Assembly (NCBI RefSeq): GCF_024700885.2
Contig: NZ_CP117016.1
Origin: Escherichia coli
Lineage (GTDB): Bacteria > Pseudomonadota > Gammaproteobacteria > Enterobacterales > Enterobacteriaceae
DNA: 64,000 bases
Reading direction: 5' to 3' (one strand)
Positions 12,965-14,570 of this stretch are shown one piece after another. Both the position numbers and the translations under genes were made by a program. The notes under the pieces are model-generated. The model ran no database searches and was not told where the DNA came from. It saw nothing but the letters and a program-made list of their open reading frames with translations. How positions within the stretch are numbered: position 1 is the first letter of the stretch; every line of letters starts with the position of its first letter.

Positions 12965-13081
12965 AGAATAAACTGGGCATGGTGGCCCGGATTCAGATTG
13001 CAGACAAAGTGAGCTTTGTTCATGCCGGATGCGGCGTAATGAACTGCACCCCAAATGTTGGACATAATCTGACATCTGAAG

Positions 13082-13612
13082 GTGCAGTTTATGAAACATT
13101 CATTTGAAGTAAAACTTGCCGCTGTAAATCATTACCTGGCTGGTCATGCAGGCATCATTTCTACGGCAAAACTCTTTCAACTTTCTCACACCAGCCTCTC
13201 ACACTGGATTAATCTTTTTCTTCTTCACGGTCCTCGGGCACTGGATTGCAGACACAAGCGTAGCTATTCTCCTGAAGATAAACTTTGCGTGGTTCTTTAT
13301 GCTCTCGGGCATTCTGAGTCTCTACCCCGGGTAGCTGCCCGGTTTAATATTCCCAGCCACAACACGGTTAAAAACTGGATAAAAGGCTACCGCAAATCTG
13401 GTAATGAGGCCTTTATCAGGCGCAGGAAGGAGAAAAGCATGACCCGTTCTGATGATACCCATGAAAACGAGGCAAACATGACGCCGGAAGAGATGAAGAA
13501 TGAGCTGCGTTATCTTCGCGCAGAAAATGCATATCTGAAAGCCATGCAGGAGCATCTCCTGGAAAAAAAGCGCCAGGAGCTGGAGAAAAAACGAAAGTCA
13601 TCCGGAGCCTGA
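13082..13612 (+). CDS. IS3-family transposase OrfA (HTH, leucine-zipper-like C-terminus)
   Basis: 176-aa product; A-AAA-AAG slippery motif near the 3' end (about 13563-13570). Confidence 0.8.
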   Translation: MQFMKHSFEVKLAAVNHYLAGHAGIISTAKLFQLSHTSLSHWINLFLLHGPRALDCRHKRSYSPEDKLCVVLYALGHSESLPRVAARFNIPSHNTVKNWIKGYRKSGNEAFIRRRKEKSMTRSDDTHENEANMTPEEMKNELRYLRAENAYLKAMQEHLLEKKRQELEKKRKSSGA

Positions 13613-13716
13613 GGTGCGGACACTGCCAGCCTGACCTGTTAAAGGCTGCAGGGCTGGCCAGAAGCACGCTGTACTACCAGCTGTCACTGCAGAAGGCTAA
13701 GGACAAGTATGCTGAT

Positions 13717-14439
13717 GTGAAACAGCTCATAGCCTCCATCTTCCATGAACACCGGGGATGTTATGGGTACCGGCGGATCCATTGTGAGCTTCAGAAAAGA
13801 GGTCTTAAGTTCAGTGGCAAAACGGTGCGAAAACTGATGCAACAGCTCGGCCTGAAGTCTCCTGTGCGCCTGAAGAAATACCGGTCTTACCGGGGAAATA
13901 TGGGACTCACTGCAGAAAATATCCTTCAGCGGCAGTTCAAAGCGGAAGCTCCCTGTGAGAAATGGGTGACAGATATCACCGAATTCAGGGCTGGCGGACA
14001 AAAACTGTACCTGTCCCCGATACTTGATTTGTTTAACGGGGAAATCGTGGCGTGGGAAACGGCCTGCAGGCCTACAGAGGAGCTGGTGAAGCGCATGTTA
14101 AATAAGGGGCTGGAAAGCCTTGCTGAAGGGGAGAAACCGCTGCTCCACAGTGATCAAGGATGGCATTACCGGATAAAAAGTTATCAGTCCGCCCTGGCGG
14201 ACAGAGGGTTAGTGCAGAGCATGTCGCGCAAGGGCAACTGCCTTGATAATGCGGTAATGGAGAACTTCTTTGGTCACCTGAAAGAAGAAATGTACTATCG
14301 CCGGGACTACAGAAATGTAGAAGAGCTGGAAAATGCCGTTAACGAATACATAACTTACTGGAATCAAAAAAGAATAAAACTCAGTCTTGGGGGACTCAGT
14401 CCGGTAGAATACCGGACTGAGCATCAAAAAGCCGGTTAA
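13717..14439 (+). CDS. IS3-family transposase OrfB (DDE integrase domain); expressed as OrfAB fusion by -1 frameshift, so the frame is open upstream of the annotated Met
   Basis: 240-aa product with rve-type core (WVTDITEF...HSDQG...NAVMENFF); frame is -1 relative to orfA. Confidence 0.8.
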   Translation: MKQLIASIFHEHRGCYGYRRIHCELQKRGLKFSGKTVRKLMQQLGLKSPVRLKKYRSYRGNMGLTAENILQRQFKAEAPCEKWVTDITEFRAGGQKLYLSPILDLFNGEIVAWETACRPTEELVKRMLNKGLESLAEGEKPLLHSDQGWHYRIKSYQSALADRGLVQSMSRKGNCLDNAVMENFFGHLKEEMYYRRDYRNVEELENAVNEYITYWNQKRIKLSLGGLSPVEYRTEHQKAG

Positions 14440-14471
14440 CTGAAACTGTCCAGGTTTTGGGGTTCAGTTCA

Positions 14472-14570
14472 GTAAACGCCCAATCCGGCCTACAAATTCA
14501 ATAAATTGCAGGAATCACATAGGCCTGATAAGCGTAGCGCATCGGGCGATTTTGCTTTTGTCATCAGACT
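14472..14570. repeat. REP palindromic units (distal part of the BIME interrupted by the IS)
   Basis: gtaaacgcccaatccggcctac... and ggcctgataagcgtagcgcatc type palindromes. Confidence 0.5.

What the first reader, a model, noticed from the sequence alone, without database searches (positions are those of the whole stretch)
13036..14475. IS3-family element (IS1397-like) inserted precisely inside a REP palindromic unit
A 1432-bp element with 25-bp imperfect terminal inverted repeats interrupts the REP sequence downstream of mgtA. It is flanked by a GTAA direct repeat that rebuilds an intact palindromic unit (gcggcGTAAacgcc) when the element is removed. Targeting of palindromic units is the known behaviour of IS1397. 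The orfA slippery motif is intact, so the element may still be active.
Basis: partly seen in the sequence, partly recalled or inferred. Interest (0 to 1): 0.45.

Follow-up and report, generated by a model that had tools for sequence, protein, structure and literature searches.

The report
IS1397 inserted in a REP hairpin
This is an ordinary, already annotated copy of the known E. coli jumping gene IS1397. It sits where this element is known to land, in the loop of a small repeated palindrome between two genes, and it disrupts no gene.

Summary
Window 13040-14471 is a 1432-bp insertion sequence. It has TG...CA ends and 25-bp terminal inverted repeats that match at 21 of 25 positions. A GTAA direct repeat flanks it at 13036-13039 and 14472-14475. 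Removing the element and one GTAA gives a sequence found 600/600 identical in E. coli Ecol_316, where GTAA occurs once, so GTAA is a true target-site duplication. The restored site is a palindromic unit (REP) that matches the published E. coli REP31 at 33 of 35 positions.

The element is IS1397 itself, not merely IS1397-like. The window is 64000/64000 identical to E. coli MLI114, where RefSeq annotates this gene as [quoted passage not shown]. The element is 98.7% identical to the CFT073 copy that the literature calls IS1397. Nine other insertion sites I examined all lie in the centre of a palindromic unit, with 3-4 bp duplications.

OrfA, the in-phase A AAA AAG slippery heptamer, the DD(35)E OrfB and both ends are intact. 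Copies 100% identical to this one sit at three other loci in other genomes, so recent activity is plausible.

A second, independent IS1397 insertion into the same palindromic unit arose among laboratory sub-strains of E. coli BH100.

Verdict: already known, low interest.

The parts
13040..14471 (+). Complete IS1397 (1432 bp), ends 5'-TG...CA-3'
   Evidence: 100% identical 1432-bp copies occur in at least 25 other E. coli genomes, and PGAP annotates them as IS1397 family transposase. 98.7% identical to the CFT073 copy the literature calls IS1397.
13040..13064 (+). Left terminal inverted repeat (IRL), 25 bp
   Evidence: Matches the reverse complement of IRR at 21 of 25 positions. Unique in the window at 3 or fewer mismatches.
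14447..14471 (+). Right terminal inverted repeat (IRR), 25 bp
13036..13039 (.). Left copy of the 4-bp target-site duplication GTAA
   Evidence: GTAA occurs once in the empty-site allele of Ecol_316, which is 600/600 identical.
14472..14475 (.). Right copy of the 4-bp target-site duplication GTAA
13091..13612 (+). orfA (173 aa from the ATG at 13091): DNA-binding HTH protein
   Evidence: Pfam HTH_28 at 9e-18 and HTH_Tnp_1. Start and end agree with the PGAP CDS limits 13091..14439.
13564..13570 (+). Slippery heptamer A AAA AAG for the programmed -1 frameshift, in phase with orfA
   Evidence: Joining here gives a 449-aa protein that is an exact NCBI sequence named IS1397 family transposase. All 9 other named cluster members I retrieved share the LLEKK|APGAGEK junction. 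Frameshifting itself is inferred, not shown.
13570..14439 (+). orfB part of the OrfAB transposase (-1 frame, open from 13504): DDE catalytic domain
   Evidence: NCBIfam transpos_IS3 at 327.7 bits against a cut-off of 160. Pfam rve, rve_2 and HTH_21. The residues D (WVTDITEF), D (HSDQG) and E (AVMENFF), with 35 residues between the second D and E, were read from the translation.
13039..13092 (+). RNA hairpin that pairs the tip of IRL with the Shine-Dalgarno region and the first bases of the orfA AUG. It can form only in transcripts that enter from outside the element.
   Evidence: -25.5 kcal/mol, z -3.55, with 2 of 200 shuffles folding as well. Also seen as inverted repeat I18. Its function as a block on read-through translation is inferred.
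13023..13039 (+). Left half of the interrupted palindromic unit (TGCCGGATGCGGCGTAA)
   Evidence: Pairs with 14476-14489 (inverted repeat I8).
14472..14493 (+). Right half of the interrupted palindromic unit (GTAAACGCCCAATCCGGCCTAC)
14494..14548 (+). Rest of the mosaic element (BIME): an AT-rich linker (AAATTCAATAAATTGCAGGAATCACAT), then a second palindromic unit in inverted orientation (AGGCCTGATAAGCGTAGCGCATCGGGC)
   Evidence: Sequence. Conserved in the K-12 empty site. Its naming as BIME-1 (Y unit, L linker, Z1 unit) rests on my own knowledge of the Gilson/Bachellier nomenclature and was not tested against a database.

Best explanation
This is a full-length, apparently functional copy of the known E. 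coli insertion sequence IS1397 (IS3 family). It transposed into the central loop of a palindromic unit (REP) of the mosaic repeat (BIME) between the convergent genes mgtA and ridA, and duplicated the 4 bp GTAA.

Inferred mechanism, from established IS3-family biology (IS911, IS2, IS3, IS150):
1. Ribosomes translating orfA slip -1 at A AAA AAG and make the OrfAB transposase, which combines HTH domains with a DD(35)E catalytic domain.
2. OrfAB binds the TG...CA inverted repeats and produces a circular copy (copy-out).
3. That copy is pasted into a target cut with a 3-4 bp stagger.

For IS1397 the transposase itself selects palindromic units as the target (Clement 1999; Wilde 2001, 2003).

Shown here: the element, its ends, the duplication, the empty allele, its identity to IS1397, palindromic-unit targeting at 10 sites, and the intact reading frames.

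Inferred: frameshifting, the circle intermediate, current activity of this copy, and near-neutrality for the host. No coding sequence is touched.
For: - Anatomy.
- Empty allele: 600/600 identical with a single GTAA. 4678 genomes have the uninterrupted site and 7 are occupied.
- Identity: the window equals E. coli MLI114 at 64000/64000 bases, and there the CDS 13091..14439 is annotated 'IS3-like element IS1397 family transposase, programmed frameshift'.
- Distribution: 1707 of 5426 genomes hold a copy covering at least 80% of the element, almost all on chromosomes.
- Literature-labelled copy: 98.7% identity to the CFT073 copy called IS1397.
- Protein families. The fused protein is an exact NCBI sequence with that name.
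- Target specificity: five sites found through flank similarity (yvcK-uvrB, barA-gudD, yshB-hemN, copG-fdhE, hyp-pgm). Three sites found through element identity alone (smrB-yfcO, rrf-mobB, msrQ-zinT). Also the CFT073 yaeF-nlpE site. All lie in the centre of a palindromic unit, with 3-4 bp duplications.
- Recent activity of the family: 100% identical copies at 4 different loci. A new insertion is present in BH100 MG2017 and absent from its sister sub-strains.
- Literature: IS1397 is active in K-12 and specific for palindromic units (PMC1525189 and the papers it cites; PMC3184786).
Against: There is nothing substantive against this explanation. The caveats are these.
- The primary IS1397 papers (PMC94167, PMC95333, PMC135288, PMC169884) are not held. 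Details such as '3-4 bp duplication' and 'IS150 subgroup' rest on my memory plus the sites examined here.
- The RefSeq record gives accession WP_112045710.1 for this DNA, while my fusion at A AAA AAG equals WP_260834445.1. PGAP therefore placed the join elsewhere in that record, and I could not find where.
- Five of the ten sites were picked through flank similarity and are biased towards palindromic units. The other five were not.
Confidence: 0.97

Rival explanations
1. The element is a different, merely related IS3-family element (for example an ISKpn1-, ISKpn8- or IS150-type element) that happens to lie in a REP, and not IS1397.
For: The ISfinder type sequence could not be compared directly. 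The family-level HMM says only 'IS3 family'.
Against: PGAP names this DNA IS1397 family. It is 98.7% identical to the CFT073 copy published as IS1397. In the plasmid collection the nearest differently named IS3 members (ISKpn8, IS150, ISEnfa3) are only 41-46% identical in protein.
Confidence: 0.02
2. The copy is a dead relic. It looks intact but no longer transposes, for example because of a missense change, and it is simply inherited vertically in one lineage.
For: Only 7 genomes carry it at this site, and 6 of them have identical junctions, which is consistent with one old event. The window variant differs from the BH100/CFT073 variant at 13 positions, including residues in OrfAB (for example CQPD against CQSD). 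The direct evidence of recent transposition (BH100) concerns the other variant.
Against: OrfA, the slippery site, DD(35)E and both inverted repeats are intact. 1432/1432 identical copies of this same variant sit at three other loci (smrB-yfcO, rrf-mobB, msrQ-zinT) in other genomes. MLI114 itself has 7 IS1397 matches, one of them at a second locus and 100% identical. Identity that complete across loci implies recent copying.
Confidence: 0.15
3. The occupied state is ancestral, and the 'empty' alleles arose by precise excision of the element.
For: None was found.
Against: 4678 genomes across all the allele types sampled, including K-12, have the uninterrupted palindromic unit and 7 have the element. 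The 4-bp duplication is the signature of insertion. In BH100 the empty state is found in the 2014 sub-strain and the occupied state in a 2017 sub-strain.
Confidence: 0.01

Closest known systems
IS1397 (IS3 family; first described in E. coli natural isolates by Bachellier et al. 1997; shown active and specific for palindromic units by Clement et al. 1999)
   Same: Length is 1432 bp, the ends are TG...CA and the inverted repeats are 25 bp. OrfA and OrfB are joined by a -1 frameshift. Insertion is in the centre of a palindromic unit of a BIME with a short duplication. It carries the PGAP name and is 98.7% identical to the CFT073 copy called IS1397.
   Different: Nothing qualitative differs. This is one of two common sequence variants, which differ at 13 of 1432 positions from each other. 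Its location (mgtA-ridA) is rare: 7 of 5426 genomes.
ISKpn1 (IS3 family, Klebsiella pneumoniae; Wilde et al. 2001, 2003)
   Same: It is a relative that also targets palindromic units, and the specificity is carried by the transposase (titles cited in PMC1525189).
   Different: It prefers a different type of palindromic unit, that of Klebsiella. I did not retrieve it here, so no identity figure can be given.
IS150, IS911 and IS3 (model IS3-family elements)
   Same: Same gene layout: orfA/orfB in 0/-1 frames, an A AAA AAG type slippery site, a DD(35)E transposase, TG...CA ends and a 3-4 bp duplication. IS150 is about 43% identical in protein.
   Different: Those elements have no strict target sequence. 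IS1397 is restricted to palindromic units.
IS621 (IS110 family) and other REP-targeting elements (ISPsy8, ISPa11, ISPpu9, ISPpu10)
   Same: They also use REP sequences as landing sites in intergenic DNA (PMC1525189, PMC3184786).
   Different: IS621 uses unrelated chemistry and has no terminal inverted repeats. It inserts beside the REP stem rather than in the loop (PMC3184786).

Membership tests
IS3 family | Length about 1.2-1.55 kb with terminal inverted repeats ending 5'-TG...CA-3' | tested here: met
   1432 bp. IRL starts TGAAC and IRR ends GTTCA. The repeats match at 21 of 25 positions.
IS3 family | Two consecutive, partly overlapping ORFs in relative frames 0 and -1, with an in-phase slippery heptamer | tested here: met
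   orfA is 13091-13612. The orfB frame is open from 13504 to 14439. A AAA AAG at 13564-13570 is in the orfA frame, and the fusion is 449 aa without a stop. PGAP notes 'programmed frameshift'.
IS3 family | The -1 ribosomal frameshift actually yields the OrfAB transposase | not testable with these tools
   This needs a reporter assay or a proteomic test. I found only weak support for downstream structure (dG -38 kcal/mol, z -2.1). An AGGAG lies 10 nt upstream of the heptamer (sequence).
IS3 family | OrfB carries an RNase-H-like DDE (DD(35)E) integrase core and OrfA an HTH | tested here: met
   Pfam rve 1.7e-21, rve_2 7e-21, HTH_21. OrfA has HTH_28 at 9e-18. There are 35 residues between the second D and E.
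IS3 family | Score above the curated cut-off of NCBIfam NF033516 transpos_IS3 | tested here: met
   The OrfB part alone scores 327.7 bits against a cut-off of 160.
IS3 family | Short (3-4 bp) target-site duplication | tested here: met
   GTAA is duplicated here and single in the empty allele. Nine other copies have 3-4 bp duplications. One BH100 copy has only 2 bp.
IS3 family | Copy-out/paste-in transposition through a circular intermediate | not testable with these tools
   Established for IS911, IS2, IS3 and IS150 (my own knowledge). It would need PCR across the IRR-IRL junction.
IS1397 (the specific element) | At least 95% nucleotide identity to a reference IS1397 | tested here: met
   98.7% identity to the CFT073 copy that Tobes & Pareja 2006 call IS1397. 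PGAP names it IS1397 family. The ISfinder type entry itself was not available.
IS1397 (the specific element) | Insertion within the central part of a palindromic unit (REP) of a BIME | tested here: met
   The restored site matches REP31 at 33 of 35 positions. The duplication spans the last stem base and the loop. All 9 other sites are also in the centres of palindromic units.
IS1397 (the specific element) | Transposase-determined preference for palindromic units, demonstrated by transposition assay | not testable with these tools
   Reported by Clement 1999 and Wilde 2001, 2003 (cited in PMC1525189). Those papers are not held here.
REP / palindromic unit, BIME | A roughly 35-bp imperfect palindrome of the GCCGGATGCGGCG...CGCCTTATCCGGCCTAC type, extragenic and repeated in the genome | tested here: met
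   33 of 35 positions match REP31. DNA hairpin z -3.8. The site lies between two stop codons. Three other units occur in the window. The 400-bp query containing this region matches a median of 15 places per genome.
REP / palindromic unit, BIME | Mosaic arrangement: two units in opposite orientation separated by a conserved linker (BIME-1 type, with an IHF site in the linker) | tested here: inconclusive
   A second, inverted unit follows after a 27-bp AT-rich linker. The assignment to BIME-1 and the IHF site were recognised from memory and not tested against a reference set.

The most novel reading that the evidence does not exclude
The element lies 75 bp downstream of mgtA and in the same orientation. 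The simple scan found no terminator-like site between the two, and the insertion has split the palindrome that stood there. Transcription of mgtA is induced by low magnesium. If it reads through, it could carry the transposase message and couple IS1397 transposition to magnesium starvation. The IRL-to-ribosome-binding-site hairpin (13039-13092) would be the gate that normally prevents this.

A more modest and better supported point is that this palindromic unit is a recurrent target. It was hit independently in the MLI114 lineage (4-bp duplication) and, within a few years of laboratory culture, in BH100 (2-bp duplication). The BH100 strain holds 33 to at least 40 IS1397 matches.
Probability: 0.07. 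Interest if true: 0.35.

Novelty: already known. Interest (0 to 1): 0.08.

Why it matters
It matters little beyond correct annotation. IS1397 and its preference for palindromic units have been in the literature since the late 1990s, and this exact copy is already annotated in RefSeq.

The case is a clean textbook example of a 'safe-haven' strategy. By landing in the loop of an intergenic repeat between two convergent genes, the element avoids damaging the host, and the repeat family gives it hundreds of equivalent targets.

The insertion is rare (7 of 5426 genomes). It could therefore serve as a lineage marker for the MLI114-like clade.

The side observation on BH100 gives direct genomic evidence that IS1397 is still mobile, and that it can hit the same palindromic unit twice.

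Tried and rejected
1. I tried to read the primary IS1397 papers (PMC94167, PMC169884, PMC95333, PMC135288). None is held, so I relied on papers that cite them.
2. I looked for REP annotation in the K-12 RefSeq record. No repeat features are listed there, only genes.
3. I looked for further IS1397 copies or ends in the window and found none.
4. I scanned for promoters and terminators in 12900-14700. Counts were no better than in shuffles, and there was no terminator-like site between mgtA and the element. I therefore name no indigenous promoter.
5. I folded the 100 nt downstream of the slippery site. The signal was weak (z -2.1), so I do not claim a defined frameshift stimulator.
6. I tried to identify the join that PGAP used for WP_112045710.1. 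Four alternative fusions are not in the protein collection, and this remains unresolved.
7. I considered and rejected three readings: a different IS3 member, since the nearest are 41-46% identical in protein; ancestral presence with precise excision; and an assembly or chance artefact, since 7 independent assemblies share the junction.
8. The identity of the element was settled without them.

Full report
**What is there.** Window 13040-14471 is a 1432-bp element that begins TGAAC and ends GTTCA. Its 25-bp termini match each other, as inverted repeats, at 21 of 25 positions, and they form the longest inverted repeat in the region. No other site in the 64-kb window matches the left end with 3 or fewer mismatches, and none is expected by chance. 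The element is flanked by GTAA at 13036-13039 and 14472-14475. It lies between the convergent genes mgtA (stop codon ends at 12964) and ridA (stop at 14606), 75 bp from the first and 134 bp from the second. No coding sequence is touched.

**The duplication is real.**
- I joined the two flanks with a single GTAA and searched 5426 complete E. coli genomes. The 600-bp reconstruction is 600/600 identical in strain Ecol_316, between mgtA and ridA.
- In that locus the left and right flanks of the window overlap by exactly the four bases GTAA.
- 4678 genomes cover at least 80% of this reconstruction in one place, and K-12 has the uninterrupted site too.
- A query across the left junction finds the occupied state in only 7 genomes.

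**The target is a palindromic unit.**
- The restored sequence TGCCGGATGCGGCGTAAACGCCCAATCCGGCCTAC matches at 33 of 35 positions the E. coli 'REP31' printed in Additional file 13 of Tobes & Pareja 2006.
- It folds as a DNA hairpin of -11.7 kcal/mol (z -3.8). The inner stem is GGCG/CGCC and the loop is TAAA.
- The duplicated GTAA is the last stem base plus three loop bases, so the element sits in the loop.
- A 27-bp AT-rich linker and a second, inverted palindromic unit follow at 14494-14548. From my own knowledge of the nomenclature this is a BIME-1-like mosaic. I did not test that label.
- Three other palindromic units in the window are uninterrupted.

**The element is IS1397.**
- The whole window is 64000/64000 identical to E. 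coli MLI114 (NZ_CP117013.1, 4623570-4687569, reverse complement).
- 1707 of 5426 genomes hold a copy covering at least 80% of the element. At least 25 genomes hold a 1432/1432 identical copy. Almost all matches are chromosomal.
- The ISfinder entry is not available here, so I used a copy that the literature names. Tobes & Pareja describe IS1397 in a REP of CFT073. I located that copy between yaeF and nlpE through its published flank.
- The CFT073 copy is 98.7% identical to the window element, with 13 substitutions and a 5-bp deletion that makes it a pseudogene.
- In the plasmid collection the nearest differently named IS3-family elements (ISKpn8, IS150, ISEnfa3) are only 41-46% identical in protein. 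'IS1397-like' therefore understates the case.

**Coding capacity.**
- orfA (13091-13612, 173 aa) has helix-turn-helix domains (HTH_28, 9e-18).
- The -1 frame is open from 13504 to the stop at 14439. It carries HTH_21, rve and rve_2 and scores 327.7 bits against NCBIfam transpos_IS3, whose cut-off is 160.
- The catalytic residues can be read as D in WVTDITEF, D in HSDQG and E in AVMENFF, with 35 residues between the last two.
- The heptamer A AAA AAG at 13564-13570 is in phase with orfA. Slipping there gives an uninterrupted 449-aa OrfAB.
- That fused sequence is an exact NCBI protein, WP_260834445.1, named IS1397 family transposase. Nine other named members of its cluster share the same LLEKK|APGAGEK junction.
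- One loose end remains. The MLI114 record lists WP_112045710.1 for the same DNA, so PGAP must have placed the join at another codon of the 13504-13612 overlap. Four alternatives I tried are not in the collection.
- An AGGAG lies 10 nt upstream of the heptamer (sequence). The 100 nt downstream fold only slightly better than shuffles (z -2.1). I do not claim a defined stimulator.

**Target specificity across copies.**
- Five further insertion sites were found because their flanks resembled the query, so they are biased towards palindromic units: yvcK-uvrB, barA-gudD, yshB-hemN, copG-fdhE and hyp-pgm. All sit in the centre of a Y-type unit, with duplications GAAA, GTTA, GAAC, GTGA and GTGA.
- Three sites were chosen only because the element was 100% identical, so they are unbiased with respect to flanks: smrB-yfcO, rrf-mobB and msrQ-zinT. 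They are also in the centres of palindromic units, including other sequence types and the opposite orientation. Their duplications are GTCA, GGC and AGC.
- The CFT073 copy has AAC.

**Is it active?** This cannot be shown for this copy, but the indirect evidence is good.
- The ORFs and both ends are intact.
- The same 1432-bp sequence sits, without a single difference, at three other loci in other genomes.
- MLI114 holds 7 IS1397 matches, one of them at a second locus and 100% identical.

**A second insertion in the same palindromic unit.**
- One of the 7 occupied genomes, BH100 substr. MG2017, differs from the others. Its flanks differ from the window at 30 of 1500 positions. Its element is the other common variant, with 13 substitutions of which 12 are shared with CFT073. 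The left junction is the same, but only AA is duplicated.
- The corresponding empty site is 400/400 identical in the sister sub-strains BH100 MG2014 and BH100N MG2017.
- The same palindromic unit was therefore hit a second time, independently and very recently, during laboratory propagation of one strain.
- The three BH100 chromosomes hold 33, 37 and at least 40 IS1397 matches, against 4-7 in relatives such as strain 536.
- The BH100 genome paper speaks of IS3-family activity but does not name IS1397.

**Likely mechanism.** By analogy with IS911, IS2, IS3 and IS150 (established knowledge, not tested here), OrfAB made by -1 frameshifting binds the inverted repeats and copies the element out as a circle. 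It then pastes the circle into a target cut with a short stagger, here 4 bp in the loop of the palindromic unit. A strong hairpin pairs the tip of the left inverted repeat with the ribosome-binding site and start codon of orfA (13039-13092; -25.5 kcal/mol; z -3.55). It can form only in transcripts that start outside the element. It would therefore be expected to keep read-through from mgtA, which runs in the same direction, from being translated. This kind of control is known for other insertion sequences but is inferred here.

**Verdict.** The element is already known and already annotated, and its interest is low.

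Noticed in passing
L018 (NZ_CP025251.1, BH100 substr. MG2017) 1901-3332; empty site in L019 (NZ_CP024650.2): There is a second, independent IS1397 insertion in the same mgtA-ridA palindromic unit. The host background differs (30 of 1500 flank differences) and so does the IS variant (13 substitutions). The left junction is the same, but only 2 bp (AA) are duplicated. Sister sub-strains BH100 MG2014 and BH100N MG2017 have the empty site, 400/400 identical, so the event happened during laboratory propagation.
   Followed up: yes
NZ_CP024650.2, NZ_CP025703.1, NZ_CP025251.1 (whole chromosomes): IS1397 has expanded in E. coli BH100. The three sub-strain chromosomes hold 33, 37 and at least 40 matches, against 4-7 in related strains such as 536 and a median of 1 across genomes. 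The BH100 paper (PMC7874104) discusses IS3-family activity but never names IS1397.
   Followed up: partly
window 13040-14471 compared with L017 and L018: Two common IS1397 sequence variants exist. The window type is identical in at least 25 genomes. A CFT073/BH100/536 type differs from it at 13 positions. The CFT073 yaeF-nlpE copy also has a 5-bp deletion (window-equivalent 13654-13658) and is a pseudogene.
   Followed up: partly
window 13039-13092 (+): An RNA hairpin pairs the IRL tip with the orfA Shine-Dalgarno region and start codon (-25.5 kcal/mol, z -3.55). It is a plausible block on translation of read-through transcripts from mgtA.
   Followed up: partly
window 14395-14421 (+): A perfect 12-bp palindrome with a 3-nt spacer (CTCAGTCCGGTA gaa TACCGGACTGAG) lies inside the 3' end of orfB, 25 bp before IRR (I15). 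Its role is unknown.
   Followed up: no
window 12969-13008 and 14557-14595: The whole BIME is bracketed by a larger imperfect inverted repeat (24-nt arms, 79% complementary, I2). Each arm contains a GGGCATG(G/A)T(G/A)GCCCGGATT hairpin, one after mgtA and one after ridA. The motif occurs only at these two places in the window. These may be the 3'-end hairpins of the two convergent genes. The simple terminator scan did not call them.
   Followed up: partly
window 13091-14439: The protein accessions do not agree. My OrfAB fusion at A AAA AAG is exactly WP_260834445.1, but the RefSeq record for identical DNA lists WP_112045710.1. PGAP must have placed the frameshift join at another codon there.
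   Followed up: partly
window 35419-35500 (+) and about 35500-61500: A tRNA-Leu gene is followed by a genomic island of roughly 26 kb. The island holds IS110/ISEc45, IS66/ISEc22 and IS21/IS100 remnants, a truncated tyrosine integrase, a serine recombinase, a PTS ascorbate-type transporter and a sugar-acid gene cluster (UxaA, PdxA-family, DapA-family).
   Followed up: no
window 42306-42445 (-): Rfam matches group II intron domains D1-D4 (66 bits against a gathering score of 49) inside that island. No intron reverse transcriptase is annotated nearby, so this is probably an intron fragment.
   Followed up: no
window 29210-29404 (+): There is a strong Rfam match to 'Yersinia sRNA 276' (Ysr276, 180.8 bits, full length) in the pepA / ytgA-lptF area.
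   Followed up: no
window 10059-10174 (+): The magnesium riboswitch (Rfam Magnesium-II, 125.8 bits) and the mgtL leader peptide lie upstream of mgtA, as expected for this locus.
   Followed up: no
window about 2020-2542: A RelE/RelB-type toxin-antitoxin pair lies between nrdG and cybC. There is also a 1872-nt 'hypothetical protein' gene between argF and tabA, at about 19516-21387.
   Followed up: no
plasmid collection: IS1397 is essentially chromosomal. Only 3 plasmid records match the transposase at 95% or more, and the best (NZ_CP141089.1, 4.9 Mb) looks like a chromosome filed as a plasmid. In E. coli genomes 7 of 7613 matches are on plasmids.
   Followed up: no
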